Source of the DNA: Patescibacteria group bacterium
GTDB lineage: Bacteria > Patescibacteriota > Patescibacteriia > UBA2591 > UBA4787
Direction: 5' to 3'
Assembly (NCBI GenBank): GCA_028715115.1
Contig: JAQUSN010000001.1
Location: 133,314 to 189,066 of the forward strand
Length of the DNA stretch: 55,753 bases
A program made the position numbers and the translations under genes. Under the pieces are notes generated by a model. The model had not been told where the DNA came from. It was given only the letters and a program-made list of their open reading frames with translations, and made no database searches. The first letter of the stretch is position 1. Each line of letters starts with the position of its first letter. Below are positions 5,944-48,866 of this stretch, in pieces.

Positions 5944-5974
5944 TTGTATGATTAATTATACCATTTTTTTCTTT

Positions 5975-6008
5975 TTTCTCAAGAAAAACGGGGCGCAGAA
6001 CGCGCCCC
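5975..6008 (-). terminator. Intrinsic terminator ending the tRNA-Ala transcription unit
   Basis: GGGGCGC-GTTCT-GCGCCCC hairpin followed by GTTTTTCTTG on the minus strand. Confidence 0.6.
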
Positions 6009-6233: not shown

Positions 6234-6249
6234 GACTATCAATATAAAA

Positions 6250-6278
6250 AATATAGCAAATTTATAAAATTTTGTCAA
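6250..6278 (-). promoter_or_regulatory. Consensus-like promoter for the tRNA-Ala unit
   Basis: The minus strand reads TTGACA-aaattttataaatttgc(17)-TATATT. The -10 element ends about 16 nt upstream of the tRNA 5' end. Confidence 0.55.
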
Positions 6279-6330
6279 GAATTTATCTGCTTTATCTTAG
6301 CATTGACCGTCTTAGTTTTTGACAGAGGGA

Positions 6331-6359
6331 TTGACAAAAATGAAAAAATATGATAAATT
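6331..6359 (+). promoter_or_regulatory. Promoter of GC-rich cassette 1a
   Basis: TTGACA (6331-6336), 17 nt, TAAATT (6354-6359). Confidence 0.5.
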
Positions 6360-6388
6360 AATTGTTAACAACCAAACGAGAGGTAATC

Positions 6389-6790
6389 TTGTCAAACAAA
6401 GTAATCCGCGCGCTCTTAGTGCTTATGCTCGTTGCAGCTCTCTGGGCGCTAGCCAGGGGAATTGCGGGGGCGACCAGTCGTCTCGACAACTCGTGCCTAG
6501 GTTCAGAAGTGACCATCTTCGCCCTGATAACCGCGATTGTCTGGATGGTCGCACCCAATGCAAACGAGGCAACGCCTAAAGGCGTAGCCTGGACCATTAT
6601 CGGCACCATACTGCCATTCGCTTGGGTGCTGGCCCAGACGTTCTTCTTCCGCAGTCAACCGTTTGAGGTTAATCGATCGCTCTGGGCGAGCTTTATCGTC
6701 GCCGTAATCGGCTACTGGCTCATCTTTCTGGGCGGCACCTTTGCTCTGCCCGAACAAAAAGAACAGGTAGCGGCACTGTCGCCGCCGTAG
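6389..6790 (+). CDS. GC-rich orphan small membrane protein (about 4 TM)
   Basis: TTG start 5 nt after GAGAGG. 133 aa, hydrophobic (LLVLMLVAALWALA, IFALITAIVWMV, IIGTILPFAWVLAQTFFF, FIVAVIGYWLIFLGG). Bracketed by a promoter and a terminator. The tracked start at 6362 lies at the predicted transcription start. Confidence 0.5.
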   Translation: MSNKVIRALLVLMLVAALWALARGIAGATSRLDNSCLGSEVTIFALITAIVWMVAPNANEATPKGVAWTIIGTILPFAWVLAQTFFFRSQPFEVNRSLWASFIVAVIGYWLIFLGGTFALPEQKEQVAALSPP

Positions 6791-6823
6791 ATAAACCAAG
6801 GAGGCATATGTCTATCCGTGCAG

Positions 6824-6858
6824 GCCCTCCGACACTAGTCGGAGGGCTCTATTTTTTT
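6824..6858 (+). terminator. Intrinsic terminator
   Basis: GCCCTCCGAC-ACTA-GTCGGAGGGC followed by TCTATTTTTTT. Confidence 0.7.
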
Positions 6859-6859
6859 A

Positions 6860-6887
6860 TTGACAAAAATTACACAAAGAATAAAAT
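6860..6887 (+). promoter_or_regulatory. Promoter of GC-rich cassette 1b
   Basis: TTGACA (6860-6865), 16 nt, TAAAAT (6882-6887). Confidence 0.5.
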
Positions 6888-6907
6888 TTTATTTATAAGG
6901 AGGCTTG

Positions 6908-7126
6908 ATGCAAATGCGAGTGTATGAAGGACGATGTCCGGTGTGCCGAATGCAGGAGATTCTTGAGGCCACCTCCTCTGAAGTGGCCCGAGTAACTCTC
7001 TATCATTTTCACCGGGAACATTATTCGTTTTGCCCTGTCCCCAGACAATGGCTCGTGATCAGAGAAGCTGCCAGGCGCAACCGCCTAATCCCCAGACTTA
7101 CCTCTCTTGCATCGTCGACCGTCTAA
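6908..7126 (+). CDS. GC-rich orphan 72-aa Cys/His-containing protein
   Basis: ATG 4 nt after TAAGGAGG. Contains CPVC...HFHREHYSFC, a possible small zinc-binding fold. A terminator follows immediately. Confidence 0.45.
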   Translation: MQMRVYEGRCPVCRMQEILEATSSEVARVTLYHFHREHYSFCPVPRQWLVIREAARRNRLIPRLTSLASSTV

Positions 7127-7158
7127 AGACCCGGGTCAGACCCGGGTCTTTTATTTTT
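7127..7158 (+). terminator. Intrinsic terminator
   Basis: AGACCCGG-GTCAGAC-CCGGGTCT followed by TTTATTTTT. Confidence 0.7.
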
Positions 7159-7164
7159 AACAAA

Positions 7165-7207
7165 TAAAAATTAAAAAAGAAAAGAGGGCGGGAGACGGCT
7201 CCCGCCC
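7165..7207 (-). terminator. Intrinsic terminator, convergent with the previous one
   Basis: GGGCGGGAG-CCGT-CTCCCGCCC (minus strand) followed by TCTTTTCTTTTTTAATTTTT on the minus strand. Confidence 0.7.
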
Positions 7208-7274
7208 TAGTAGAAACGGAGATTCACATCCCTCCAAAGAAATGCGAAACTCCTTCTGTCCTCGCTCGGCGCCG

Positions 7275-7886
7275 CTAGGTGATGCGGTAGTTCTTCGTCG
7301 AGTTCAGACCGGACCCCTGGTTGTTCAGTGCGACGGCTTCCTTGATGTCGGTGACCAGCATGGCGACGCCCGTGTACAGCGGACCAGTGGCGACAATCGG
7401 GCACAAGTAGCCCGTACCTTCCTGTGCGATCATGGCCTGTGTAGATGCGGCGTTCGTGCCCCAGCTCGCCATTTGCTCTCGGTTGGTTGCGCCGGCCTGG
7501 ATCTGGATCGTCGGGTTGGTCGCGATGGTCTTAAGGTTGGCCTGCGTCGGCCAGATGACGACATCGGACCTCATCGCCAGTAGACATGGCTCGTTTGAAG
7601 CGGATGCGCTGCTGTTGTGGATGAATACGGTCCTGGCTGCCATCGTCGAGGTGCCCGGCCCGTGGTTCATGTTGATCGCGACGGCGAGAACGTCCATGGA
7701 AGGGGGACTGTTCACTGCCGCAGCCGTCGATGTGGACACGATGACCTGGTTCTGGTTGCCCGCGTCGTTCTCGAACGCCGATGACGAAGTGCTCGATGTG
7801 TTAAGCGCGACCTCGCTCCTCGGAGGTGACGCCGCGACCATCGACACCAGTACCAGGCAGCAAGCTAGCGTGAGAAGTTTCCTCAT
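7275..7886 (-). CDS. GC-rich orphan secreted protein (Ala/Ser/Thr/Asn-rich)
   Basis: ATG 6 nt after AAGGGAG. Signal peptide MRKLLTLACCLVLVSMVAA. 203 aa and low complexity. A terminator lies 68 nt downstream. Confidence 0.55.
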   Translation of the reverse strand: MRKLLTLACCLVLVSMVAASPPRSEVALNTSSTSSSAFENDAGNQNQVIVSTSTAAAVNSPPSMDVLAVAINMNHGPGTSTMAARTVFIHNSSASASNEPCLLAMRSDVVIWPTQANLKTIATNPTIQIQAGATNREQMASWGTNAASTQAMIAQEGTGYLCPIVATGPLYTGVAMLVTDIKEAVALNNQGSGLNSTKNYRIT

Positions 7887-8109
7887 CACGCACTCCCTTC
7901 TTCCCTTTGTGAGGGAATGCCACCAAAGGTCATCCCGCGCAGGGATAGGTGGCGCTTAGGATGTTAAAGCTGCCTCTCTGCGGTCAACCACGCATGGCTG
8001 ACATCTGACATCGTTCCTCCGCGAGGCAAACGATGCTAGATTGCATTGATTATAAAATAACAGATTAATAAAATTTGTAAAGTTATTGGTGGGGAAAATT
8101 AATAATTTT

Positions 8110-8380
8110 GAAAATTAAAGAGAGGGAGCCAACACCGGTGAGGGTGTGTTGGCTCCCTTAAGGGAATACAGCTGGCACAACAAGTGGAGGCGCGACTTGC
8201 TCTGTCTCTGCTCCCTTTTCGGCGGTGGCTGCAGGTGATGCAGGTGCTCGGAAAAAAATGGATCCCCTTGTTGTTTGTTCTGTTAGTTTTCTCGGTAAGC
8301 TGGCGAGAGTTCGGGTTCCTCGAAAGTGAATATAGCAGGTTAGGCACCGAGCAAGACAACAGAACCTCCATCCATATTTT
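8110..8380 (-). other. GC-rich structured segment ending in a minus-strand terminator (unclassified RNA or leader)
   Basis: Terminator GGGAGCCAACAC-ACCCTCACCG-GTGTTGGCTCCC plus TCTCTTTAATTTTC on the minus strand (8110..8157). A long imperfect stem pairs 8275..8296 with 8346..8367. Tracked ORFs on both strands lack an SD or run through the terminator. Confidence 0.3.
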
Positions 8381-8449
8381 TAGTATGATACTTTTATTTT
8401 AAAAATGAAGCTGAAAATAGTGGATAACTTTTACGGATCAAATTTCTAA

Positions 8450-32478: not shown

Positions 32479-32490
32479 AAATTCCATGTG

Positions 32491-33138
32491 ATGGTTAAAG
32501 CTGTCTTCCACATCCATTCAAAGTATTCTTCCGACAGTTTCTCTAGTCTAGAAAAAATCGCCGGCTTTTGCCAAAAGAAAAATATTAATTTAGTCTTTTT
32601 GTGTGATCACAACAATCTGGCCCCGACAACCACCATAAATGGAGTTCAAATTATTGGCGGGGAAGAAATTAAAACGCGTGAAGGTGAAATTATTGGTCTT
32701 TTCGTCAAAGAAAAAATTGAGCCCAACTTGCTTTTGGCAGAAACTATAAAAAAAATAAAAGAACAGGGCGGACTGGTAGCCACTCCCCATCCTTTTAACA
32801 GCTTAATCCGCCGCTGGAGCGGCAAAAAAATACAACCCGAAAATTTATTAAAAAATATCGATCAAATTGATATTGTTGAAGTTTTTAATGCCCGTAATAT
32901 TTATCCGGTCGACAATAAAAAGGCTCTGGAATTTGCCGAGAAAAATAAAAAGATAAAAATCGTCGGCAGCGACGCCCACGTGATTAATGAAATTGATAAC
33001 ACTAGTTTTTTAATTGATAATTTTTCTACTCCTCAAGAATTTTTAAATAACCTATCTCGGGCGGAATTTTCTACCAAAACTGGTTCTCTTGTTGACCAAC
33101 TGAAGTCGTTATTTGTTAAAATTATAAAATTTTTCTAA
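32491..33138 (+). CDS. PHP-domain metal-dependent phosphoesterase
   Basis: HIHSKYSSDS N-terminal motif, CDHN, PHPF, SDAH. Confidence 0.65.
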   Translation: MVKAVFHIHSKYSSDSFSSLEKIAGFCQKKNINLVFLCDHNNLAPTTTINGVQIIGGEEIKTREGEIIGLFVKEKIEPNLLLAETIKKIKEQGGLVATPHPFNSLIRRWSGKKIQPENLLKNIDQIDIVEVFNARNIYPVDNKKALEFAEKNKKIKIVGSDAHVINEIDNTSFLIDNFSTPQEFLNNLSRAEFSTKTGSLVDQLKSLFVKIIKFF

Positions 33139-33183
33139 ATTAGTATTCTAGGTTTTTCGAGAAGTGTTAAGATAAAAAATCTT

Positions 33184-34329
33184 ATGAATTTACCGAATTC
33201 CTTGCAGAAAAAAATTGAATTTTTAAAAGCTCTGGCGGTTTTTGCCGGCACGATTATCGGCGTCGGCATTTTCGGCCTACCCTACGTCGCCTTAAAATCT
33301 GGATTTTTTGTCGTAGTGGCTTATTTTATTTTGGTGGCTATTTTGGCTATTATTGTCCAGATTCTTTTGGGCGAAATGGCTTGCGATACGCATAAAATCG
33401 CCCGTATTCCAGGTTACGCCGAGGAGTACATCGGGCCAAAGGCAAAAAAAATATCTTTTATCATCTCGTCGCTTGGTTTAATTGGTGCGCTTTTAGCTTA
33501 CTTGATCTTGGGCGGCGCTTTTTTAGGCTCGATTCTTCGGCCGGTCTTGGGCGGCGCTAATTTGATTTATGTTCTATTGTTTTTTACCGCCGGCGCCGCG
33601 CTGATTTTTGCCCGCGTGCGAAATATTGCCCGTTTTGAATTAATAATGTTCGTTGCCTTTGTGATTATTTTATTTATTTTTATTTATCACGGATTTCCTC
33701 ATGTTGATTATCAAAATTTATTGGGCTTTAATCCCAAATTAATTACCTTCCCTTACGGCATTATTTTATTTTCTCTCTGGGGTATTGCTTTGGTACCGGA
33801 GATAAAAGAAATTGTCGAAAGAAATCGACCATGCTTAAGAGGAGTCATTGCCGCCGGCGTCATCGTTTCTGCTCTTTGTTATTTATTTTTTGTCTTTATC
33901 TTTTTGGGTGTCAGCGGTCAAACAACCACGCCCGACGCTATGACTGGTTTTATTAATACGCTAGGCAATGGCGTGAGAACCTTGGGTTTTGTTTTTGGCC
34001 TAATCACTACCTTCACCTCTTTTATTGCTCTAGGCATGACACTAAAAAAAATATTTTGGCTCGATTTTCATCTACCACGAAATGCTTCTTGGGCGCTGGC
34101 TTGTTTTATTCCTTTAGGATTATATTTTTGCGGTTTTAAAAATTTTATAGACATCATCGGTTTAACCGGCGCCCTGATGCTTGGCCTTGAAGCTATTATG
34201 GTCGTCTTTATTTATAAAAATTTCTTGCAAAAAAGGTTTCATCAAAACGCTCCTTGGTGGCTCTACTTGCTCGTTGTCTTGTTTGTTATCGGTATAGTCT
34301 TACAGTTTATATATTTCTTTACTTCATAA
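33184..34329 (+). CDS. Amino-acid-transporter-like polytopic membrane protein
   Basis: 381 aa with about 11 TM segments. The N-terminal GTIIGVGIFGLP motif is typical of the Trp/Tyr-permease and AAAP-like families. Confidence 0.5.
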   Translation: MNLPNSLQKKIEFLKALAVFAGTIIGVGIFGLPYVALKSGFFVVVAYFILVAILAIIVQILLGEMACDTHKIARIPGYAEEYIGPKAKKISFIISSLGLIGALLAYLILGGAFLGSILRPVLGGANLIYVLLFFTAGAALIFARVRNIARFELIMFVAFVIILFIFIYHGFPHVDYQNLLGFNPKLITFPYGIILFSLWGIALVPEIKEIVERNRPCLRGVIAAGVIVSALCYLFFVFIFLGVSGQTTTPDAMTGFINTLGNGVRTLGFVFGLITTFTSFIALGMTLKKIFWLDFHLPRNASWALACFIPLGLYFCGFKNFIDIIGLTGALMLGLEAIMVVFIYKNFLQKRFHQNAPWWLYLLVVLFVIGIVLQFIYFFTS

Positions 34330-34338
34330 AATATCTAC

Positions 34339-34656
34339 ATGCAGGAATCTAGTGCGCCATTTGGCAAAGTGCAAAATCTTGAGTCAAACGATAAGTTCGG
34401 CTCAAGCGTTTTAATCGTCGAGGTTGGCCAAGAAATAACCAAGCACTACCACAAAAAAACCAAAGAAATAGAGGTTATTTTAGAGGGAGAAATAATCTGC
34501 GACGGTGAAATACAAAGGCCAGGCGAAGTTAATATTTGGGAACCAATGCAAATGCATGGTTACAAAAACATCTCTAACGCGCCGGTAAAAATTCTTTGCT
34601 TAGCCGTGCCTCCTTACGATCCAAACGATTCGTTTGAGGTGGGCCCAACCGCCTAA
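34339..34656 (+). CDS. Cupin-domain protein
   Basis: 105 aa. HYHKKTKEIEVILEGE ... MHGYKN, a two-motif cupin pattern. Confidence 0.6.
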   Translation: MQESSAPFGKVQNLESNDKFGSSVLIVEVGQEITKHYHKKTKEIEVILEGEIICDGEIQRPGEVNIWEPMQMHGYKNISNAPVKILCLAVPPYDPNDSFEVGPTA

Positions 34657-34691
34657 TTTTGACTTTCCACGGTTTATCCACAGAAAAAATA

Positions 34692-34720
34692 TTGACAAAT
34701 TTTCATTTTTTTTGTATAAT
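34692..34720 (+). promoter_or_regulatory. rRNA operon promoter
   Basis: TTGACA (34692-34697), 17 nt, TATAAT (34715-34720), 250 nt upstream of the 23S. Confidence 0.6.
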
Positions 34721-34864
34721 TTATATACAAATTAGATAATACTAATGTTTAAACTCATGTTAAACAAAAATTCCATATCTCAATTGGGCGGTTGATTCCA
34801 ACAGCATTTTTTTAGGTGCGTTGAAACCGCCTGAAAGCGGTTTTTTGTTTAATAAAATATTTTC

Positions 34865-34877
34865 TGCTCTTTAACAA
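34865..34877 (+). promoter_or_regulatory. rRNA antitermination boxA
   Basis: TGCTCTTTAACAA is identical to the E. coli rrn boxA consensus. It is preceded by the hairpin AAACCGC-CTGAAA-GCGGTTT, in a boxB-like position. Confidence 0.7.
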
Positions 34878-34973
34878 CTCGCGTTAAAAACAATGAAAGC
34901 ACAATATGCCTAATACAATCCGTTCATCCGCCTACTGGCGGAGACGGACTAACTAAAAATTTTTTCGATTTTT

Positions 34974-38098
<3,125 letters not shown>

Positions 38099-38156
38099 AA
38101 GGATCGAAAAATAAAAAATATTATTTTAACGTACACAAATTAAAACGCGCGCAAAG

Positions 38157-38272
<116 letters not shown>

Positions 38273-38292
38273 CCTTGCGCGCGTTTTTTATT
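38273..38292 (+). terminator. rRNA operon terminator (3' arm of the 5S-enclosing stem plus T-run)
   Basis: CCTTGCGCGCG pairs with 38146..38156 and is followed by TTTTTTATT. Confidence 0.6.
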
Positions 38293-38339
38293 ACCAAAAG
38301 CTGGGCATTCTGGCTCTTTTTTGATATAATATTTATATT

Positions 38340-39620
38340 ATGCAATACATCGCAGATCTACATATACACAGCAAATACTCCCGGGCTACCTCTAAAAGCA
38401 CAGACTTGGAACATTTAACTCAGTGGGCGCAAATTAAAGGCATCCAAATTTTAGGCACTGGCGATTTTACTCACCCGCTCTGGTTTAAAGAAATCCAAAA
38501 CAAGTTAGAACCAGTTAAAGATGGATTATATAAATTAAAAACCGCACAGTCAGACATGCGTTTTATTTTGTCTACCGAATTCTCTTGCATTTATACCAAA
38601 AACGACAAATGCCGACGAATCCATCTTTGTGTTTTTGCGCCGAACATTGCCACGGTTGCCAAAATCAACCAAACATTGGGCGGAAAATATAATCTAAAAT
38701 CCGACGGCCGGCCGATTTTGGGAATCGATGCCAAAGAATTGCTAAAAATTTTATTAGATATTTCTCCGGACATTGTGATGATCCCGGCTCACGCCTGGAC
38801 TCCCTGGTTTTCTATTTTTGGTTCAAAGTCCGGCTTTGATTCAGTCGAAGAATGCTTTAATGAGCTCGCGCCTAAAATTTTTGCCCTAGAAACCGGACTT
38901 TCTTCCGACCCAATGATGAATTGGCAGTGGTCGTATCTCGATAAATACACTCTGATTTCCAATTCTGACGCGCATTCACCGGAAAAACTCGGCCGCGAAG
39001 CTAACGTCTTTGACTTTAAACAAGAACCAACTTATAAAGATTTAATGCAAAGCATTAAAACTAGGCAAGGATTTCTTTACACCATTGAATTTTTCCCTGA
39101 AGAAGGCAAATACCACCTCGACGGCCACCGTGCCCATAATGTCGTCTTAGAACCAAAACAAACCAAGAAACTCAAGGGCATTTGCCCGGTTTGCCACCGG
39201 CCATTAACCGTTGGTGTTTTAAGTCGAGTCGCCGAACTAGCTGATCGCGAGGCGCCACAACGGCCTAAAGGCGCGCCTGACCAAAAAAGTATTATTCCAC
39301 TTAAAGAAATTATCTCTGAAATCGAGGGCGTAATGCCGACCAGTAAGCGGGTTGATGCCATTTATCACGAAATGATTAAAAGGGGTAAAAATGAATTTAA
39401 TATTTTACTAAATTTATCACGCGAGGAGATAACCAATGTCAGCGAACCGAAAATGGCTGAGGCGATAATGAAAATGCGCGCCGGTGAAGTCATAAAAAAC
39501 CCTGGCTACGATGGAGTTTTCGGCCAAATAAAAATTTTCCCCGACTCGCCAGATTTAAAAAGGCTAGGATCTTCTCTGCCAGGTAAAAAAACAAACAAAA
39601 ATCAAAAAGTATTATTTTAA
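38340..39620 (+). CDS. Endonuclease Q-like PHP-domain protein
   Basis: 426 aa. N-terminal ADLHIHSKYSRATS PHP motif, NSDAHSP, and a CPVCHRPLTVGV zinc-finger-like segment. Size and layout match the EndoQ/TIGR00375 family as I recall it. Confidence 0.55.
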   Translation: MQYIADLHIHSKYSRATSKSTDLEHLTQWAQIKGIQILGTGDFTHPLWFKEIQNKLEPVKDGLYKLKTAQSDMRFILSTEFSCIYTKNDKCRRIHLCVFAPNIATVAKINQTLGGKYNLKSDGRPILGIDAKELLKILLDISPDIVMIPAHAWTPWFSIFGSKSGFDSVEECFNELAPKIFALETGLSSDPMMNWQWSYLDKYTLISNSDAHSPEKLGREANVFDFKQEPTYKDLMQSIKTRQGFLYTIEFFPEEGKYHLDGHRAHNVVLEPKQTKKLKGICPVCHRPLTVGVLSRVAELADREAPQRPKGAPDQKSIIPLKEIISEIEGVMPTSKRVDAIYHEMIKRGKNEFNILLNLSREEITNVSEPKMAEAIMKMRAGEVIKNPGYDGVFGQIKIFPDSPDLKRLGSSLPGKKTNKNQKVLF

Positions 39621-39622
39621 AT

Positions 39623-40423
39623 ATGGAAATCCGCTTGATTCAAAGCAAGTCCGCCCTGCATAAATCAAAATTAGCCGGCGGCGGATATACTCTCAACCCC
39701 TATTCTGGCTGCCCGCATGGCTGCCAGTATTGTTATAATCAAAAATTTTTTAACATTATCCATCCCGACTGCCCCTGGGGTAAATATTTTGACGTCAAAA
39801 CAAATTTCCCAGAAATTTTAGCCAAAGAAATCTTGGCCAAACCCAAAGCCAACGTATTTTTTTCAACTATTACCGATCCCTACAACGCCCTGGAGAAAAA
39901 ATACCAGATCACTCGCCGTTCTTTGGAGCTGCTGCTGGCTAATGGTTGGCGAGCTTCTCTTTTAACCAAATCTGATCTGGTTTTGCGGGATTTGGATTTA
40001 TTCAATAAATACCGAGCTAAAATAGACGTCGGTTTTACTATTACTTCGGTTGATGATAAAATCGCCAGAATTCTCGAGCCTAACGCGCCAAGCCCGACCC
40101 GTCGATTAGCTGCCTTAAAACAACTACACAAACATAAAATAAAAAATTATATTTTTGTCGCGCCAATTATTCCGCACCTAACTGACATTGAAAAAATTTT
40201 CCAGGCAGCGAACGGTTTTTGCGATGAAATTTGGTTTGATTCATTTAATACTAAGCTGGTTAACTGGCCAGCCTGGTTAAGGATCGTTAAACAAAATTTT
40301 TCAAATTTATTAGACTTTTACAAAGATTATGCCTTGAATAAAAAATTATTTGAGAAAGAAATAAAAAACAAAATAATAAATTTAGCGCAGAAATATAAAA
40401 TAAAAACCAAATTTATTTTTTAA
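39623..40423 (+). CDS. SPL-family radical SAM protein (SplB / DNA-repair-photolyase-like, COG1533)
   Basis: 266 aa. LNPYSGCPHGCQYCY (CX3CX2C) near the N-terminus. No SPASM-type extra cysteine cluster. Confidence 0.65.
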   Translation: MEIRLIQSKSALHKSKLAGGGYTLNPYSGCPHGCQYCYNQKFFNIIHPDCPWGKYFDVKTNFPEILAKEILAKPKANVFFSTITDPYNALEKKYQITRRSLELLLANGWRASLLTKSDLVLRDLDLFNKYRAKIDVGFTITSVDDKIARILEPNAPSPTRRLAALKQLHKHKIKNYIFVAPIIPHLTDIEKIFQAANGFCDEIWFDSFNTKLVNWPAWLRIVKQNFSNLLDFYKDYALNKKLFEKEIKNKIINLAQKYKIKTKFIF

Positions 40424-40479
40424 TTTTAAAAACAAAAAGCACATTCCTTCTCGCGCTTTTTAATATACATATTTTACTG

Positions 40480-40507
40480 TTGACAAAATGCCGATCTTTG
40501 CTATCAT
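40480..40507 (+). promoter_or_regulatory. Promoter of the GC-rich unit 40.5 kb
   Basis: TTGACA (40480-40485), 16 nt, TATCAT (40502-40507). An overlapping TATAAT sits at 40507-40512. Confidence 0.5.
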
Positions 40508-40514
40508 ATAATAG

Positions 40515-40805
40515 TATTTGAAAGGAGCGTTCTTGGGCAAAACATGTCCACCTGGCGAGAGACTCATCTCTCGTCCGCCCTTCCACAAAGGCACAGATTG
40601 GCGTCGCCAGCTCAGACCAGGGCATGGCAGTCGCCCGGGCAACGGTCCGTCGCGCATACCGCGACCGATCGAAACTCGATCCGAATCTGAGAGTCGTATC
40701 TCAAGGAGGTAAGTAAGATGCTCTTGCGTCCGAAAGCGCGCGACCAGCCGCATTAAGCAAGGGTCACCCTCTCGGGTGAAGCCTACGCGCGGTTTTCCTC
40801 ACATC
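40515..40805 (+). other. GC-rich promoter-to-terminator unit: either a structured RNA or two coupled small ORFs (59 aa and 12 aa)
   Basis: Many local hairpins (CGAGAGA/TCTCTCG, GTCGCG/CGCGAC, GATCGA/TCGATC, TGAGA/TCTCA). AAAGGAG-5nt-TTG opens a 59-codon Pro/Arg/Gly/Ser-rich ORF (40533..40712). Its stop lies inside AAGGAGGTAAGTAAG-ATG, which precedes a 12-codon ORF (40718..40756). Confidence 0.3.
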
Positions 40806-40838
40806 GAACCCCCTCTCCCAGGGGGTTCGTTTATTTTA
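40806..40838 (+). terminator. Intrinsic terminator
   Basis: GAACCCCCT-CTCCC-AGGGGGTTC followed by GTTTATTTTA. Confidence 0.7.
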
Positions 40839-41080
40839 TAAAATTATATTAATCAATATTATTTAAACCATACTCATATTAATAGGCCGAAGAAATAACT
40901 CTAAACTAAAAAAATTTGCGAAATTACGAATATAGAATTCGGGGTTGCAAGTGGGATAAACCTATCTACTCGTTCCTCTTTTTCTTTTTTTAATTAAATT
41001 TCTTTGTTTGTGTCGTAAAACGTGAGTGCAAAATTTGTGGATTATGTTTTAATTTTTATAAAACCCGATTAACCCAATAA

Positions 41081-41100
41081 AATGTTCCACGTGGAACATT
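41081..41100. promoter_or_regulatory. parS (ParB/Spo0J binding site), copy 1
   Basis: AATGTTCCACGTGGAACATT is a perfect 20-bp palindrome. The core TGTTCCACGTGGAACA fits TGTTNCACGTGNAACA. Confidence 0.75.
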
Positions 41101-41235
41101 CACTCTGGTTAATACGAAAAACAAGGGATTATTGTGAAATTCTGGATCTATTTTGAATTTAAAAACAAGAATTTAGCTCTGCTTAAAATCTTAAAAATAT
41201 TTTATCTTTTACTTTTTATTTTCTTAATTCTATTA

Positions 41236-41255
41236 AATGTTCCACGTGGAACATT
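41236..41255. promoter_or_regulatory. parS (ParB/Spo0J binding site), copy 2
   Basis: Identical 20-bp palindrome, starting 155 bp after the first. Confidence 0.75.
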
Positions 41256-41376
41256 CTTAAATTAAAAATAAAATTCATTAATTTTGTCTGGCGATATGCT
41301 AAAAATTGAAACATCATTTTACGACGCCAAATATTTATAAATAAGCCTGATCAAAAAGTTAATAAAAAACAAAGGA

Positions 41377-41404
41377 TTGACAAATATAAAAATTATGCTA
41401 TCAT
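41377..41404 (+). promoter_or_regulatory. Promoter of paralog cassette A
   Basis: TTGACA (41377-41382), 16 nt, TATCAT (41399-41404). Confidence 0.5.
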
Positions 41405-41420
41405 TAAAAATGATAGATAT

Positions 41421-41463
41421 CTACTCGGAGAACGATCTCTAAGAAGAGGTCGACAGCGAGTAG
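41421..41463 (+). promoter_or_regulatory. Conserved 43-nt leader stem-loop, copy A
   Basis: CTACTCG-GAGAA-CGATCTCT-AAGA-AGAGGTCG-ACAG-CGAGTAG. Same architecture as 42174..42216. Confidence 0.5.
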
Positions 41464-41494
41464 GGTCTGTCGGAATTAAGCACTAGGAGGTTTT

Positions 41495-42067
41495 GTGAGT
41501 ATAGCGACAGTTCACCCCTTAAAACAGGGTTCAGTCCAAAAATGGCTCAGGCGATTCTGGATGAATCTGCTCCCCTGGAACAGAGCCTGGAAAAAGTTCA
41601 TAAGCGAAGATCACCTGTGGGGCGGTTTATTCTACCTGAAGAACCACTACATCGACCCGATCAATTGCCCGGAAGAAGTCTCGCAACTGCTTCGGCTCCT
41701 TACGGCCTTACGTGCAGAAGTAGGACACATTCCGGAGCTCCGGAAGATCCAGAATCAGCTGCTTTGGAATCCCAACCCCCAGAGCAAGCACCGCAAGCTG
41801 GCCGACTTGATTGGCCAGGTAATTGTCCTGCTTCAGTCGTATCGCGCCCTTGCCGATAAGTGCGGCATCCAATCGCCCAGGCCCGGCATATTCCTCGAAG
41901 CCGACAATGTCATAATTGCCGAGAGTTCAATTAAGTACCTGCGCAGTCTCGGCAAGACCGATTCGAGGAGAGTTTCGGCCAATTTGTCGGCCCGGACCTT
42001 CCGGAGAAACGAGATGTGGTCGATGGTCCCCATCATCGGCACCATCAACGAACTGCTCAACTCATGA
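41495..42067 (+). CDS. GC-rich orphan protein, paralog A (190 aa)
   Basis: GTG start in AGGAGGTTTTGTG. Shares IPEL.K....LLWNP...SKH..LA......I.VLQ.Y...A..C.I..P with paralog B. Codons mostly end in G or C. Confidence 0.6.
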   Translation: MSIATVHPLKQGSVQKWLRRFWMNLLPWNRAWKKFISEDHLWGGLFYLKNHYIDPINCPEEVSQLLRLLTALRAEVGHIPELRKIQNQLLWNPNPQSKHRKLADLIGQVIVLLQSYRALADKCGIQSPRPGIFLEADNVIIAESSIKYLRSLGKTDSRRVSANLSARTFRRNEMWSMVPIIGTINELLNS

Positions 42068-42072
42068 CCATT

Positions 42073-42116
42073 GCCCGCATCAGGTTCAATCCCTGATCGC
42101 GGGCTTTTCTTTTTTA
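42073..42116 (+). terminator. Terminator with tRNA T-loop-like hairpin
   Basis: GCCCGCATCAGG-TTCAATC-CCTGAT(C)GCGGGC, a 12 bp stem with 1 bulge, followed by TTTTCTTTTTT. Confidence 0.65.
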
Positions 42117-42122
42117 AAAATA

Positions 42123-42150
42123 TTGACAAAAGACAAAAATCTGCTATAAT
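42123..42150 (+). promoter_or_regulatory. Promoter of paralog cassette B
   Basis: TTGACA (42123-42128), 16 nt, TATAAT (42145-42150). Confidence 0.55.
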
Positions 42151-42173
42151 ATATTTAACAAACCAACAGACAA

Positions 42174-42216
42174 CTGCTCGGAGAACGATTTCCTAGGAGA
42201 AATCGGCAGTGAGCAG
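42174..42216 (+). promoter_or_regulatory. Conserved 43-nt leader stem-loop, copy B
   Basis: CTGCTCG-GAGAA-CGATTTC-CTAGGA-GAAATCG-GCAG-TGAGCAG. Confidence 0.5.
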
Positions 42217-42235
42217 CTCTGTTAAAGGAGGTTTT

Positions 42236-42847
42236 GTGAAGCTACATCCGTCAATCATCAGGATCTGGAAGCGAACTTGCCGCTGGCTCAAGGAGATCTG
42301 GCCATTCCTGTCTCCCTGGGGCCGCGCTGTTGTTCGCTTCACCGAAGAAGCTCCAAGCGGTAAAGAAATACCGTTGTGGAACATGCTCTTCACTCTCGTG
42401 CGCACCTACCTCGAGGCCAAGACTCCCATCGGCTTCCCTGAAGACCAAGAAGAACTGATGAGACTACCTACCGTGCTCTACTACTTGCGCATGCTAATGC
42501 TGCGAATCCCTGAGCTCGAGAAGGTCAGAAAAGGGCTGCTATGGAACCCTTTCTACGAAAGCAAGCATCTGCAGCTGGCGCGCCAGGTTGAGCGAATTAT
42601 CTACGTACTACAGCGGTACGACGATTACGCCGCTGTATGCGAGATTGAGGTGCCGAAAGAACTCCCCCAGCTCCACAGCACCAAAGTGCTAAGCCGCACC
42701 ATCGTTCAACTAAGAAGCCTTGAAAAGGGCGCCGACAACGATCGAGCCAAGGCCAATAACCTCTGCCACGACTTCATGCGACATCAGCTGTACGAACTGA
42801 TAGCCGCCGTTAACGCGATAAACCAGCTTCTTCACCCCGAGTCATAG
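42236..42847 (+). CDS. GC-rich orphan protein, paralog B (203 aa)
   Basis: GTG start in AGGAGGTTTTGTG. The tracked start at 42209 lies inside the leader stem. Paralogous to 41495..42067. Confidence 0.6.
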   Translation: MKLHPSIIRIWKRTCRWLKEIWPFLSPWGRAVVRFTEEAPSGKEIPLWNMLFTLVRTYLEAKTPIGFPEDQEELMRLPTVLYYLRMLMLRIPELEKVRKGLLWNPFYESKHLQLARQVERIIYVLQRYDDYAAVCEIEVPKELPQLHSTKVLSRTIVQLRSLEKGADNDRAKANNLCHDFMRHQLYELIAAVNAINQLLHPES

Positions 42848-42888
42848 CCCTGGCGGATTCATCAGGATCGGCCGATCCTGAAATGTCG

Positions 42889-42935
42889 CCCGCGGGATAA
42901 TTAGGTTCAAATCCTACCTGCGGGCTTTTCTTTTT
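42889..42935 (+). terminator. Terminator with tRNA-like acceptor plus T-arm architecture
   Basis: CCCGCGGG-ATAAT-TAGG-TTCAAAT-CCTA-CCTGCGGG-C followed by TTTTCTTTTT. Preceded by the palindrome CAGGATCGGCCGATCCTG (42863..42880). Confidence 0.6.
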
Positions 42936-42936
42936 G

Positions 42937-42970
42937 AAAAAGACATCTAATTTTAGATGTCTTTTTGTTT
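42937..42970. terminator. Bidirectional AT-rich hairpin terminator (paralog B / ychF)
   Basis: AAAAAGACATCTAA-TT-TTAGATGTCTTTTT, flanked by T/A runs on both strands. Confidence 0.55.
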
Positions 42971-42988
42971 TGTATTCTAGATTCTAAT

Positions 42989-44056
42989 TTATGCATTAGC
43001 CCTAATCTCAATCACGTCGCCATCTTTAATTGTGTATGTCTTGCCTTCGGTGCGAACTAAACCCTTTTCGCGAGCCTCAATATAACCATGCGCCTTTAAT
43101 AAATCTTGCCAAAAAATAACTTCAGCGCGCACAAAGCAACGTTCAAAATCAGTATGAATCACGCCGCCGGCTTGTGGCGCCATACTACCTCGTTTCAAGG
43201 TCCAAGCTCGCGTTTCATCCGGCCCAGTTGTTAAAAACGTAATCAAATCTAATAACTGATAAGATTTTTGAATTAATTTGTCTAAACCCGACATGGCTGG
43301 TAAACCGAGGGCGATTCTGTCTTCTGTTTTCATGTCCGCTGCTTCAAGTTCGGCCACCACGTCAACAATTAAATACGACCAACTGTGTTCGTTAAAAACA
43401 TCTTTTATTTTTTGCGACACCTCTGATTCGGATCCGTTTAATAAATATATTCTCGGCTTGGTGGTTAAAAGCTGATAGGTTTTTAAAATTTGCTTTTCTT
43501 CTTCGTTTAAAATCACTTCGGATAAAATCTGACCATTATCTAAAATCTGCCGCACTCGTTTTAAAACTTCAAATTCTTTAAGCGTCTCTTTGCGGCCACT
43601 TTTTATTTCATGTTCCAGGTCTACCAAGCGCTTATTGATAGTTTCCAGATCTTTTAAAATTAATTCTGTATCTAAAATTTCTTTATCAGCCACTGGGTCG
43701 ATTTCTTTTTGAGTGTTGACGATTTTATCATCCAAAAATGCTCGCAAAACATAGACAATAGCGTCGGTTTCACGAATATTGGCCAAAAATTTATTGCCCA
43801 ATCCTTCGCCTTGGCTAGCGCCCTTAACCAGACCAGCAATGTCAACAAATTTTACCGTAGTAAAATTTTTCTTAGCTGACTTAGTCAGCTCGGCTAATTT
43901 ATCAACGCGTTCGTCAGGCACAGCCACCACACCAACATTTGGATCAATGGTGCAAAAAGGATAGTTCGCGCAATCAACCTGCTTTTTAGTAATAGCTTGA
44001 AATAGGGTAGACTTGCCCACATTGGGCAGCCCCACTATGCCGATAGAAAATGACAT
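42989..44056 (-). CDS. ychF: Ribosome-binding ATPase YchF
   Basis: 355 aa. GIVGLPNVGKSTLF Walker A, DIAGLVKGAS, C-terminal TGS-like region. Confidence 0.9.
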   Translation of the reverse strand: MSFSIGIVGLPNVGKSTLFQAITKKQVDCANYPFCTIDPNVGVVAVPDERVDKLAELTKSAKKNFTTVKFVDIAGLVKGASQGEGLGNKFLANIRETDAIVYVLRAFLDDKIVNTQKEIDPVADKEILDTELILKDLETINKRLVDLEHEIKSGRKETLKEFEVLKRVRQILDNGQILSEVILNEEEKQILKTYQLLTTKPRIYLLNGSESEVSQKIKDVFNEHSWSYLIVDVVAELEAADMKTEDRIALGLPAMSGLDKLIQKSYQLLDLITFLTTGPDETRAWTLKRGSMAPQAGGVIHTDFERCFVRAEVIFWQDLLKAHGYIEAREKGLVRTEGKTYTIKDGDVIEIRANA

Positions 44057-44128
44057 GTCAAAATTATTAAAAATTAAGAACTAAAATATTATATAGATTT
44101 TTCTCTCTTTCGTCAACTTTTCATAAGA

Positions 44129-44157
44129 TTGACAAATTCATTAAAATGCGCTATTAT
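44129..44157 (+). promoter_or_regulatory. Promoter of GC-rich cassette C
   Basis: TTGACA (44129-44134), 17 nt, TATTAT (44152-44157). Confidence 0.5.
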
Positions 44158-44232
44158 ATAGCAAGGTTCGTGAAGCTGGGGTCGCTCGGTTTTCGCAAAC
44201 CTGTCTGGAGGCACCTTAACAAGGAGTTTACC

Positions 44233-44805
44233 GTGAGAATCGTGATCTTGACTATGGCGGTCTTTGTTGTCATAGCAGGTGCTATGATCGCATGGGCTTG
44301 GCCAATCGTCACCCAGCCAAATGCCGGAGACGAAAAACCGCAGAGCGCTATCACGCACTTCCGCAATGTACTCAACACGACCGCGAACAACAGCTTAACC
44401 CTGGTACAGCTCAAGGATACCATGACCAGGCTGGGCCAACTGCCCATGGCGCGGCAACTCGGATGGTCTGGGTATCATCTCGACTCACTGCTATCGAATT
44501 ACGCCAAGAACCTGGCCGTGAACTACGGCGATACTATCAAGGCTGTCCTGGGAGAACTGACTGCCGGGAAGACCGATACTGCTACTTTTTGTGAAGTACT
44601 GCAGGCTTTCTCTACCCGCATCGCCTATCTACGCGTGGAATTGAGTATCGCCTGCCCGGCAATGACCATGTTACCAGACGATAGTCTCTACCCCTACTCC
44701 CAGGTTTGGGACGTTTGGGAGAAAACGAGAACGACATGGGTGCAGCGTTTTTTCCGCACATTGTCTCTCGGGCCGCGCATTAGCGCGGCCCTTATCTTTT
44801 CCTAA
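44233..44805 (+). CDS. GC-rich orphan protein with N-terminal signal anchor (190 aa)
   Basis: GTG 6 nt after AAGGAG. N-terminus VRIVILTMAVFVVIAGAMIAWAW. The tracked ATG at 44146 lies upstream of the -10 box. Confidence 0.55.
   Translation: MRIVILTMAVFVVIAGAMIAWAWPIVTQPNAGDEKPQSAITHFRNVLNTTANNSLTLVQLKDTMTRLGQLPMARQLGWSGYHLDSLLSNYAKNLAVNYGDTIKAVLGELTAGKTDTATFCEVLQAFSTRIAYLRVELSIACPAMTMLPDDSLYPYSQVWDVWEKTRTTWVQRFFRTLSLGPRISAALIFS
44770..44800 (+). terminator. Intrinsic terminator overlapping the last codons of cassette C
   Basis: GGGCCGCGC-ATTA-GCGCGGCCC followed by TTATCTTTT. Confidence 0.6.
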
Positions 44806-48056: not shown

Positions 48057-48731
48057 ATGCCTCACATATTTTTTGACGAAAGTGGTCAATTTACAACACA
48101 TAATAATGAAAACTATTTCATCGTCGCATCTTTTACCGTCGGGAATCCCAGACGAACAGAAAAACAATTTAAATCTTGGCAGAGGAGAAAATTTCCCAAA
48201 AAACTGCGCTATCAACCAGAAATTAAATTTTCTGAAGTTGAGATTAAAGACGAACTTCGTATGGCAACTCTAAAATTTATTTCCGATCTTGATGTTAGGA
48301 TTAATTTTTCCTATTTATTAAAACAAAATATTCCTGGCAATTATCATAAAAATAAAAAACTACAAAGCGGACTCTTATATACCAACATCATCGGAGAAAC
48401 AGTAGAAATGTATTTGCCCTTAGCCGATAAAGAACTTCGAGTTTTTTGCGATGAACGACATTTAAAAGGAATTAAAAAACCAATATTTGAGAAAACCCTA
48501 ATTAATAGATTGTTACCGCAATTACAAAAAGGTACAAATATTCAAATTGAGATGATTGATTCAAAAGAAAATGCTAATATCCAAATCGTCGATTGGATTG
48601 CCGGGGCACTAGCTGCTTTTTTGGAGAAAAAAGAACTTGGTAGCGGATTTTATCAAATCTTACAAAACAATATCTTAAAAGAAGGCAAAGAATTATTTAA
48701 AGATTATTGGAGCAATAAATATCAAAATTAA
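48057..48731 (+). CDS. DUF3800-family protein
   Basis: 224 aa. The N-terminal IFFDESG motif is typical of DUF3800. Confidence 0.55.
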   Translation: MPHIFFDESGQFTTHNNENYFIVASFTVGNPRRTEKQFKSWQRRKFPKKLRYQPEIKFSEVEIKDELRMATLKFISDLDVRINFSYLLKQNIPGNYHKNKKLQSGLLYTNIIGETVEMYLPLADKELRVFCDERHLKGIKKPIFEKTLINRLLPQLQKGTNIQIEMIDSKENANIQIVDWIAGALAAFLEKKELGSGFYQILQNNILKEGKELFKDYWSNKYQN

Positions 48732-48770
48732 AGATAAAAACCCTGATTTGTTAACCAAGGTTTTTATCGA

Positions 48771-48866
48771 GAAGTAGCGTCTTATAAAATGGTTATTCTG
48801 CGGCTTAAGTCTCGGATACTCCGAGGGAACACCACAGCATTTTATAAGCTATTATTGCATACTTCT
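48771..48866 (+). other. Nested three-level stem structure in the DUF3800-rfbB spacer (unclassified)
   Basis: GAAGTA/TACTTC, CTTATAAAATG/CATTTTATAAG and CTCGGA-TAC-TCCGAG are nested. Confidence 0.3.

What the first reader, a model, noticed from the sequence alone, without database searches (positions are those of the whole stretch)
40480..44805. Cluster of GC-rich, individually insulated orphan cassettes embedded among AT-rich native genes
Four units have composition unlike their neighbours: 40515..40805, 41495..42067, 42236..42847 and 44233..44805. Hand counts of single 60-nt lines give 52-62 percent GC inside them (lines 41701, 42541, 44401). Sampled polysaccharide-locus lines (22021, 9121) give 18-45 percent. 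Their codons mostly end in G or C.

Each unit carries its own TTGACA-N16/17-TAnnAT promoter, an AGGAGG-type SD, a GTG or TTG start and its own GC hairpin terminator. The native AT-rich ychF gene sits between two of them, so this is not one contiguous foreign block.

I recognise no domain in any of the proteins. A first cluster of the same kind lies at 6.0-8.4 kb. Possible explanations: repeated capture of foreign genes behind host-type promoters, a family of selfish expression cassettes, or a specialised highly expressed gene class.
Basis: partly seen in the sequence, partly recalled or inferred. Interest (0 to 1): 0.8.

Follow-up and report, generated by a model that had tools for sequence, protein, structure and literature searches.

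The report
GC-rich self-contained orphan genes in Patescibacteria
An AT-rich Patescibacteria chromosome carries several small GC-rich genes of unknown function, each with its own promoter and terminator, that look like imported accessory genes, although related genomes hint that such GC-richness can persist for a long time.

Summary
In a 38.6% GC Patescibacteria window, units A (40514-40835), B (41411-42104), C (42157-42925) and D (44164-44805) are 52-58% GC with sharp edges. B, C and D have GC3 0.64-0.69, against 0.25-0.45 for about 45 native ORFs. Each unit has a near-consensus sigma-70 promoter, a Shine-Dalgarno site, a GTG or TTG start and an intrinsic terminator.

Two NCBI MAG assemblies carry the region, so it is not a chimera. 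B and C are true protein paralogs (36% identity). They share a conserved three-tier 5' leader hairpin and a T-loop-like terminator. Searches of 5.8 billion and 1.84 billion proteins found one other family member, on a 1.1-kb contig with the same A-then-B layout. A probably encodes a ~59-aa basic protein. D is a membrane-anchored orphan. No Pfam, PHROG, NCBIfam, PADLOC, Rfam, PDB or viral match exists.

The units share no ends or repeats and no recombinase is nearby, so they are not a selfish cassette family.

Best reading (confidence 0.48): moron-like autonomous accessory islets of foreign compositional type, sitting in a cellular chromosome rather than a prophage.

Caveat: synonymous sites are saturated within the B/C family, yet GC3 stays high. 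Other Patescibacteria keep orthologous GC-rich cassettes across speciation. Actively maintained GC-richness therefore remains a live rival.

The parts
40480..40507 (+). Promoter of unit A (TTGACA-16-TATCAT with extended -10 TG)
40533..40712 (+). Unit A ORF. It probably encodes a ~59-aa very basic Arg/Pro/Ser-rich protein. A Shine-Dalgarno AAAGGAG lies at 40521-40527. The first in-frame TTG at 40518 is too close to the predicted transcription start to be the start codon.
   Evidence: Aligned with the L002 reading frame, 18 of 36 residues are identical and 12 of those use different codons. Nucleotide identity by codon position is 0.56/0.58/0.33. None of 2000 shuffles reached the alignment score. 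The ORF's own composition shows no GC3 excess.
40678..40714 (+). Conserved 37-nt core of unit A (GATCCGAATCTGAGAGTCGTATCTCAAGGAGGTAAGT). It spans the ORF stop and a second Shine-Dalgarno-like site ahead of a 12-aa mini-ORF.
   Evidence: blastn against L002 gives 82% identity over 38 columns, E 7e-6
40805..40829 (+). Intrinsic terminator of unit A
   Evidence: The whole A transcript folds with z = -4.6 to -5.2.
40836..41376 (.). AT-rich spacer (23-30% GC) between A and B. It holds two 33-nt direct repeats, each containing the perfect palindrome ATGTTCCACGTGGAACAT (41082-41099 and 41237-41254). The equivalent spacer in L002 is only ~70 bp.
41377..41404 (+). Promoter of unit B
41411..41472 (+). 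B 5' leader: a three-tier hairpin starting at about +1, with an invariant internal loop (CTCGGAGAACG / CGRCAGYGAG)
   Evidence: The B, C and L002 leaders each fold on their own into the same architecture (z = -6.0, -4.6, -3.2). Compensatory changes occur in all three stems.
41495..42067 (+). Unit B CDS (190 aa, GTG start, all-alpha orphan)
42073..42104 (+). B terminator: a 12-bp helix with a 7-nt loop UUCAAUC closed by G-C, resembling a tRNA T-loop, followed by a T-run
42123..42150 (+). Promoter of unit C (12 of 12 consensus positions, extended -10)
42165..42223 (+). C 5' leader hairpin, homologous to the B leader
42236..42847 (+). Unit C CDS (203 aa, GTG start), paralog of B
   Evidence: BLASTP gives 36% identity, E 7e-31. 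The codon-position pattern of substitutions is that of a coding sequence.
42888..42925 (+). C terminator, with T-loop-like 7-nt loop UUCAAAU
42989..44056 (-). Native ychF (GC3 0.37). It separates C from D and has its own terminator hairpin at 42937-42966 and its own promoter at 44116-44088.
44129..44157 (+). Promoter of unit D, back to back with the ychF promoter
44233..44805 (+). Unit D CDS (190 aa, GTG start after AAGGAG). It has an N-terminal transmembrane anchor followed by helical sequence, and is an orphan. The last ~12 codons run through the terminator hairpin at 44770-44791.
6331..7151 (+). First cluster, units E and F. E has promoter 6331-6359, a CDS at 6362-6790 encoding a multi-transmembrane protein, and terminator 6823-6848. 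F has promoter 6860-6887, a CDS at 6905-7126 and terminator 7125-7151.
7185..8081 (-). First cluster, unit G. Terminator 7208-7185, CDS 7889-7275 (204 aa with a signal peptide, GC3 0.80), a 157-nt GC-rich 5' UTR, and a promoter-like site at 8081-8054.

Best explanation
The GC-rich segments are small, autonomous, monocistronic accessory-gene cassettes of foreign compositional type. I call them 'moron-like islets'. They sit in three intergenic sites of an AT-rich Patescibacteria chromosome:
- beside the tRNA-Ala and tRNA-Val genes (E, F, G);
- between a radical-SAM gene and ychF (A, B, C);
- between ychF and a bPH_2 gene (D).

How each unit most likely works:
- A near-consensus sigma-70 promoter drives it; A, B and C also have an extended -10.
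- A structured GC-rich 5' UTR follows. In B and C it is a conserved three-tier hairpin that probably stabilises the mRNA or binds a regulator.
- A strong Shine-Dalgarno site with a GTG or TTG start gives translation of a small lineage-specific protein. A is tiny and basic. B and C are all-alpha. D, E and G carry membrane or signal segments.
- An intrinsic terminator prevents read-through into native neighbours.

Shown: the composition, the expression signals, coding status and paralogy, orphan status, and support from independent assemblies.

Inferred: expression level, origin by horizontal transfer from an unsampled moderately GC-rich (~55%) gene pool, and any function.
For: Foreign composition at every level:
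- GC3 is 0.64-0.80 against 0.25-0.45 for native ORFs.
- Codon usage is uncorrelated with native genes (r = -0.42 to -0.01) but correlated among cassettes (r = 0.21-0.51).
- The FYMINK amino-acid fraction is 0.14-0.27, below the native minimum of 0.28.
- Cassettes A-D use GTG or TTG starts where the neighbouring native genes use ATG.

Insulation:
- Each unit has its own promoter and terminator, and GC steps sharply at the transcript edges.

Real genes:
- B, C and P0003 show nucleotide identity pos2 > pos1 > pos3, and about half of the identical residues use different codons.
- Unit A shows a similar pattern.

Patchy distribution and orphan status:
- Searches of 5.8 billion proteins with B, D and G found only the query itself. 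The B/C profile against 1.84 billion representatives found one extra member.
- None of 80 relatives' ychF loci carries a homolog.
- No library match was found.

Context:
- The first cluster abuts the tRNA-Ala and tRNA-Val genes. An exact 43-bp duplication there includes the 3' end of tRNA-Val.
- The region is not an artefact: two NCBI MAG assemblies carry it.
- Own promoter plus own terminator plus deviant GC is the published hallmark of horizontally acquired morons (PMC3594210).
- Horizontal transfer and genomic islands are reported as common in Patescibacteria (PMC12455944).
Against: - No donor or homolog was found in any database, including viral contigs.
- No integrase, transposase, att-type flanking repeats or shared cassette ends occur at 40-45 kb.
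- The cassette promoters are of the same near-consensus type as the native rRNA and tRNA promoters.
- The whole B cassette and the A-then-B order recur in a locus diverged to 50% amino-acid identity, with the same AT-rich promoter and GC-rich body.
- B and C are saturated at synonymous sites yet both keep GC3 of about 0.68.
- In other Patescibacteria, syntenic orthologous GC-rich cassettes keep GC3 of 0.72-0.83 while their native neighbours are saturated at much lower GC3: 0.32-0.42 for L063/L081, and a locus median of 0.56-0.60 for L036/L058. A simple model of recent import followed by amelioration does not predict this.
- Newly acquired genes and ORFans are usually AT-rich rather than GC-rich. 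This point rests on my own knowledge of Daubin and Ochman's work.
Confidence: 0.48

Rival explanations
1. The cassettes are a resident, lineage-specific gene class whose GC-richness is actively maintained. They are long-standing Patescibacteria genes, not recent imports. High GC from transcription start to terminator would be kept by selection, for example for very stable, strongly folded, highly expressed mRNAs, or by a local GC-biased process such as biased gene conversion in frequently recombining surface or accessory genes.
For: - GC enrichment tracks the transcription unit, including the 5' UTRs of B, C, D and G, and not just the ORF.
- Five of the 13 promoters in the window that match 11 or more of 12 consensus positions drive cassettes. 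The others drive rRNA, three tRNAs, ychF and a few native genes.
- Predicted cassette transcripts fold with z = -2.3 to -5.8, against -1.9 to +1.6 for 15 native segments. Their MFE per nucleotide is about 50% stronger.
- B, C and P0003 are saturated at synonymous sites yet have GC3 of 0.69, 0.67 and 0.56.
- Syntenic orthologous GC-rich cassettes in L063/L081 (GC3 0.78/0.72) and L036/L058 (0.82/0.83) persist beside native genes of lower GC3.
- No donor is detectable among 15 billion proteins.
Against: - For coding regions alone the folding excess is modest and inconsistent: z = -3.6 to -0.45 with dinucleotide shuffles, and +0.6 for G with synonymous-codon shuffles. Much of the signal therefore comes from UTR hairpins.
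- Amino-acid composition is GC-shifted as well. This is what long residence in a GC-richer genome predicts.
- Ribosomal-protein genes in L063 and L081 are not GC-rich (GC3 0.28-0.42), so high expression alone does not explain it.
- The genes are absent from 80 relatives' ychF loci.
Confidence: 0.28
2. The units are a family of mobile or selfish cassettes, integron-like or otherwise site-specifically recombined, that spread as units.
For: - The units are compact and self-contained, and each ends in a GC hairpin.
- B and C are tandem copies that include promoter and terminator.
- An exact 43-bp duplication lies at tRNA-Val beside the first cluster.
Against: - The units share no sequence at their ends, and their hairpins differ, apart from the B/C duplication.
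- blastn finds no similarity between the two clusters beyond AT-rich low-complexity sequence.
- No integrase or recombinase appears in the called genes of the flanks.
- The leader pattern gave 0 matches in viral contigs and only chance matches in metagenome contigs.
- Integron cassettes lack promoters, whereas these have them.
Confidence: 0.06
3. The GC-rich islands are structured non-coding RNA genes, as GC-rich islands in AT-rich genomes often are, and the ORFs are incidental.
For: - Unit A has no GC3 excess (0.55/0.65/0.54) and folds with z of about -5.
- The B and C transcripts fold with z of about -4 to -5.8.
- Stop-poor GC-rich DNA gives long ORFs by chance.
Against: - B, C, D, E and G show strong codon periodicity.
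- B, C and P0003 have a protein-type substitution pattern and E = 7e-31.
- Even unit A's ORF shows a third-position identity deficit against L002.
- No Rfam family matches at gathering or relaxed thresholds.
Confidence: 0.05
4. The segments are assembly or binning chimeras, meaning reads from a GC-richer organism were joined into the MAG.
For: The NCBI contig JAQUBC010000001.1 ends at window position 44513, inside unit D.
Against: - A second NCBI MAG (GCA_028713815.1) carries window 34229-54805 and is identical to the window throughout the finding region.
- GC steps coincide with promoters and terminators, not with arbitrary breakpoints.
- An unrelated ENA contig (L002) shows the same architecture of AT-rich promoter and GC-rich body.
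Confidence: 0.02

Closest known systems
Phage morons (independent transcription units inserted in phage or prophage genomes; Juhala/Hendrix concept, reviewed in PMC3594210)
   Same: Single small genes with their own sigma-70 promoter and factor-independent terminator. Their GC content differs from that of neighbours, and they sit between unrelated resident genes. Their products are often small membrane or secreted proteins of unknown function.
   Different: The neighbours here are cellular housekeeping genes (23S/5S rRNA, a radical-SAM gene, ychF, ftsK, tRNAs), not phage genes. There is no PHROG or viral-contig match. The cassettes are GC-richer than their surroundings, and some analogous cassettes persist across speciation.
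Horizontally acquired genomic islands or islets, and ORFans
   Same: Atypical GC3, codon usage and amino-acid composition. Patchy distribution, no homologs, and one cluster beside tRNA genes.
   Different: The islets are very small (0.3-2.4 kb). They carry no mobility genes, and the 40-45 kb units have no flanking direct repeats. They are GC-rich where ORFans are typically AT-rich. Each gene is individually insulated.
Integron gene cassettes
   Same: Compact single-gene units arranged in series, ending in imperfect hairpins, with many orphans.
   Different: These have their own promoters. There is no shared attC-like site, no intI or attI, and a native gene (ychF) interrupts the series.
GC-rich structured-RNA islands in AT-rich genomes
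   Same: Sharp GC islands bounded by a promoter and a terminator, with strong predicted folding, especially for unit A and the B/C leaders.
   Different: Coding periodicity and protein-level conservation show that most are protein genes. No Rfam family matches.

Membership tests
Phage moron | Own promoter upstream of the gene | tested here: met
   Sites matching 11-12 of 12 consensus positions lie directly upstream of A, B, C, D and F; E matches 10 of 12
Phage moron | Own factor-independent terminator downstream | tested here: met
   GC hairpin plus T-run after A, B, C, D, E, F and G
Phage moron | Nucleotide composition differs from flanking genes | tested here: met
   GC3 0.64-0.80 against 0.25-0.45
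Phage moron | Inserted between genes of a phage or prophage genome | tested here: not met
   Flanking genes are rRNA, PHP, radical-SAM, ychF, bPH_2, FtsK, tRNAs and a polysaccharide locus. PHROGs gave no significant hit. Viral contig scans gave no hit.
Integron cassette | attC recombination site shared by cassettes at their 3' ends | tested here: not met
   No repeat family is shared by cassette ends except the B/C duplication
Integron cassette | Promoterless cassette expressed from Pc, next to intI/attI | tested here: not met
   Each unit has its own promoter. No integrase appears among the called genes of the flanks.
Classical genomic island | Atypical composition and codon usage | tested here: met
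Classical genomic island | Mobility genes (integrase or transposase) and flanking direct repeats, often at a tRNA gene | tested here: not met
   No mobility genes were found. The 40-45 kb units have no flanking repeats. The only such sign is a 43-bp duplication at tRNA-Val near the first cluster.
Classical genomic island | Absent from close relatives at the same site | tested here: inconclusive
   Homologs are absent from 80 relatives' ychF loci, but the best relative shares only 71% ychF identity and synteny is not conserved. Exact-protein look-ups returned only the same population.
Known structured ncRNA family (Rfam) | Match to a covariance model | tested here: not met
   No hits in the units at the gathering threshold or at E up to 5
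Known protein family or defence system | Profile match in Pfam, NCBIfam, PHROGs, PADLOC or PDB | tested here: not met

The most novel reading that the evidence does not exclude
Some AT-rich Patescibacteria maintain a dedicated class of autonomous, strongly promoted transcription units bracketed by hairpins. Their entire transcribed region is held at about 55-60% GC over evolutionary time, across gene duplication and speciation, while the rest of the genome sits at 30-40%. This would be a selectively or mechanistically maintained compositional compartment for fast-evolving accessory or surface genes, not horizontal-transfer debris. The A-B-C module, with its conserved leader RNA and T-loop-like 3' ends, would be one such unit with its own RNA-level regulation.
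Probability: 0.2. Interest if true: 0.75.

Novelty: new variant of a known kind. Interest (0 to 1): 0.45.

Why it matters
If these are imported islets, they show that Patescibacteria chromosomes accept single-gene, ready-to-express 'moron-like' units outside prophages. The source would be a gene pool that 15 billion sequenced proteins have not sampled. That is a useful handle on how ultra-small symbionts gain envelope and accessory functions.

If the GC-richness is instead maintained, as the B/C/P0003 family and the L063/L081 and L036/L058 orthologs hint, it would challenge the routine use of GC3 and codon deviation as proof of recent transfer in these genomes. It would also point to an unrecognised force shaping gene-scale composition.

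The B/C family also offers a compact new RNA element, the conserved 5' leader hairpin, for experimental study.

Tried and rejected
Searches that found nothing useful:
- Rfam at the gathering and relaxed thresholds gave nothing in the units. ARAGORN found no tmRNA or tRNA there.
- Pfam, PHROGs, NCBIfam and PADLOC gave only sub-threshold noise.
- A PDB sequence search gave nothing.
- AlphaFold2 of B from a 3-sequence alignment gave pLDDT 62 and an all-alpha model. Foldseek against the PDB gave no match below E = 0.29.
- AlphaFold2 of D gave pLDDT 48, too poor to search with.
- The leader DNA pattern gave 0 hits in viral contigs. Its 61 hits in metagenome contigs were all chance matches inside coding sequences of GC-rich organisms, with no partner arm.
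- The unit A core pattern gave 0 hits in viral contigs.
- B/C, D and G gave no relatives in viral contigs.
- Exact-protein look-ups for ychF, D and G returned only the same MAG population, so no strain-level presence/absence data were obtained.

Ideas rejected:
- Transcript-wide selection for RNA structure. Full transcripts fold far better than shuffles, but the coding regions alone give mixed z-scores that overlap native genes.
- A 14-nt match between the unit A core and ychF (pair I20). It is same-sense on the two transcripts, so it is not an antisense target.
- Assembly chimera.

Full report
SOURCE AND RELIABILITY

The window matches a Patescibacteria MAG. NCBI contig JAQUBC010000001.1 (GCA_028686935.1) covers window 31561-44513 with three mismatches. 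JAQTNO010000008.1 (GCA_028713815.1) covers 34229-54805 and is identical to the window throughout the finding region. The first contig ends inside unit D, but the second assembly reads straight through it. The GC steps coincide with promoters and terminators. The segments are therefore not assembly chimeras.

THE OBSERVATION

The window is 38.6% GC overall. The only stretches longer than 400 bp at 50% GC or more are:
- the 23S rRNA;
- the block holding the tRNA-Val and tRNA-Ala genes plus the first cluster (5851-8385);
- the four units of the finding.

GC3 values are B 0.69, C 0.67, D 0.64, E 0.64 and G 0.80. About 45 native ORFs range from 0.25 to 0.45.

Other measures agree that the cassettes are compositionally foreign:
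- Their codon usage is uncorrelated with native genes (r = -0.42 to -0.01) but correlated among themselves (r = 0.21-0.51).
- Their amino-acid composition is GC-shifted. The FYMINK fraction is 0.14-0.27, against a native range of 0.28-0.40.
- A-D start with TTG or GTG, while the neighbouring native ORFs start with ATG.

Each unit has a promoter matching 11-12 of 12 consensus positions (with an extended -10 TG in A, B and C), a Shine-Dalgarno site and a GC hairpin terminator. In the whole window only 13 promoters reach 11 of 12. Five of them drive cassettes (A, B, C, D, F). The rest drive the 23S rRNA, three tRNAs, ychF and a few native genes.

WHAT THE UNITS ARE

B and C:
- B (41495-42067) and C (42236-42847) are tandem paralogs with 36% identity, E = 7e-31.
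- The duplication includes the promoter, an approximately 60-nt leader, the AGGAGGTTTTGTG start region and the terminator.
- A profile of B plus C searched against 1.84 billion representative proteins found only B, C and one more protein, P0003. P0003 lies on a 1132-bp ENA contig, L002.
- Across the three genes, nucleotide identity is highest at codon position 2 and lowest at position 3. About half of the identical residues use different codons.
- This is therefore a real protein family under purifying selection, with saturated synonymous sites.
- AlphaFold2 gives a seven-helix model of modest confidence (pLDDT 62) with no PDB neighbour.

The shared RNA elements of B and C:
- The leaders of B, C and L002 each fold on their own into the same three-tier hairpin, starting near +1. 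The z-scores are -6.0, -4.6 and -3.2.
- The stems show compensatory changes, and the internal loop is invariant (CTCGGAGAACG / CGRCAGYGAG).
- I infer an mRNA-stabilising or regulator-binding element.
- The B and C terminators are 12-13-bp helices capped by UUCAAUC and UUCAAAU loops closed by G-C. This is the canonical tRNA T-loop pattern. The partial L002 hairpin is not canonical, so the resemblance may be coincidental.

Unit A:
- L002 also carries, upstream of its B-like gene, a homolog of unit A. The two share a 37-nt core, GATCSGAATCYGAG(C)AGTNGTNNCTCAAGGAGGYAAGT.
- A and B are therefore an ancestral pair.
- Unit A folds strongly (z about -5) and lacks a GC3 excess, which suggested an ncRNA.
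- However, its ORF aligns with the L002 frame. 18 of 36 residues are identical, 12 of them through different codons. Position-3 identity is 0.33, against 0.56 and 0.58 at positions 1 and 2.
- I therefore rate A as probably (about 60-65%) a ~59-aa very basic protein gene with a structured 3' UTR and a possible coupled mini-ORF.

Unit D and the first cluster:
- D (44233-44805) has an N-terminal membrane anchor and no homolog other than itself among 5.8 billion proteins.
- G likewise has no homolog.
- E is a multi-transmembrane protein, and G has a signal peptide.
- No Pfam, PHROG, NCBIfam, PADLOC, PDB, Rfam or viral-contig match exists for any unit.

NOT A CASSETTE FAMILY

Apart from the B/C pair, the units share no protein similarity, terminal repeats or attC-like sites. 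No recombinase is called in the flanks. The leader pattern is absent from viral contigs, and its metagenome hits are all chance matches. The 'selfish cassette family' reading is not supported.

ORIGIN: TWO LIVE EXPLANATIONS

(1) Imported islets.
- The closest known concept is the phage moron: a gene with its own promoter and terminator and deviant GC, taken as a sign of horizontal transfer (PMC3594210).
- All three of those features are met here. The fourth feature, a phage genome context, is not met.
- Foreign composition at nucleotide, codon, start-codon and amino-acid level supports import.
- So do the patchy distribution (no homolog in 80 relatives' ychF loci) and the tRNA-adjacent first cluster with a 43-bp duplication of the tRNA-Val end.
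- Horizontal transfer is reported as frequent in Patescibacteria, mostly among themselves (PMC12455944). Some Patescibacteria in the ychF set have 50-67% GC, so a GC-richer Patescibacteria pool is a plausible unsampled source.

(2) Maintained GC-richness. Several results fit the import model poorly:
- B and C are saturated at synonymous sites yet both hold GC3 of about 0.68.
- The L002 cassette, at 50% amino-acid identity to B, keeps the same contrast of AT-rich promoter and GC-rich body.
- Anchoring on ychF revealed analogous cassettes in other Patescibacteria. In L063 and L081 a syntenic orthologous secreted-protein gene (43% identity over 347 aligned residues) has GC3 of 0.78 and 0.72. It has its own promoter and terminators. 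Its native neighbours are saturated at GC3 of 0.32-0.42.
- L036 and L058 show the same pattern (GC3 0.82 and 0.83, against locus medians of 0.56-0.60).
- GC enrichment covers the 5' UTRs as well as the ORFs.
- Cassette transcripts fold far better than shuffles (z = -2.3 to -5.8, against -1.9 to +1.6 for native segments).

Against explanation (2):
- The coding regions alone give mixed z-scores.
- Amino-acid composition is also shifted.
- Ribosomal-protein genes in L063 and L081 are not GC-rich.

VERDICT

The finding is real and is not explained by any curated family. The best reading is moron-like autonomous accessory islets of foreign compositional type in a cellular chromosome (0.48). A maintained GC-rich gene class is a serious rival (0.28). 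Minor rivals are a mobile cassette family (0.06), ncRNA genes (0.05) and chimeras (0.02). The remainder is unassigned.

I class it as a new variant of a known kind, with moderate interest (0.45). The strongest leads for follow-up are the persistence of GC-rich cassettes across speciation and the A-B-C module with its conserved leader.

Noticed in passing
window 41069-41101 and 41224-41256: Two 33-nt direct repeats lie 155 bp apart. Each contains the perfect 18-bp palindrome ATGTTCCACGTGGAACAT, which has a CACGTG core. They sit in the 540-bp, 23-30% GC spacer between units A and B. The palindrome occurs nowhere else in the window, and 0 matches are expected by chance. It could be an operator pair. 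The homologous spacer in L002 is only ~70 bp and lacks it.
   Followed up: partly
window 42073-42104 and 42888-42925: The B and C terminator hairpins have 7-nt loops, UUCAAUC and UUCAAAU, closed by G-C on 12-13-bp helices. They therefore resemble a tRNA acceptor/T-arm minihelix. The resemblance is not conserved in the partial L002 hairpin.
   Followed up: partly
window 41756, 41757, 41761 (inside unit B): The only three differences between the window and NCBI contig JAQUBC010000001.1 over 12.9 kb cluster within 6 nt of gene B (C>T, A>T, G>T; Gln to Leu in the conserved LLWNP motif region). The same contig ends at window 44513, inside unit D.
   Followed up: no
window 5798-5883: An exact 43-bp tandem duplication (2.0 copies, 100% match) includes the last 11 nt of tRNA-Val plus a downstream hairpin. 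It could be an att-like scar next to the first GC-rich cluster.
   Followed up: partly
window 5985-6160 (minus strand): A ~150-nt GC-rich stretch lies between tRNA-Ala and an intrinsic terminator, apparently co-transcribed with tRNA-Ala. It has no Rfam match.
   Followed up: no
L063 3881-5814 and 7890-9080; L081 4446-5678 and 10613-11227; L036 2133-2978; L058 1576-2418: Other Patescibacteria carry GC3-outlier genes next to ychF (GC3 0.68-0.83 against much lower native values). The L063 units have their own promoter-like site and terminators. Two pairs are syntenic orthologs that stay GC-rich although native synonymous sites are saturated. One of these genes has an SLT transglycosylase domain and one has a weak DUF5680 hit.
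   Followed up: partly
window 48770-48866 (minus strand): A DUF3800-V RNA (Rfam RF02964, 82 bits) lies immediately downstream of a DUF3800 protein gene at 48057-48731.
   Followed up: no
window 34692-38272: A 23S rRNA (3111 nt matched against a 2925-nt model, so it probably carries insertions) and a 5S rRNA are driven by a 12-of-12 promoter at 34692-34720. No 16S rRNA lies in the 35 kb upstream, so the rRNA genes appear unlinked. A 26-nt indel at 34918-34943 distinguishes the two assemblies.
   Followed up: no
window 8099-8402: A fourth GC-rich segment of the first cluster (49% GC) has competing ORFs on both strands (72 aa on plus, 90 aa on minus) and a strong hairpin at about 8121-8160. Its strand and coding status are unresolved.
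   Followed up: no
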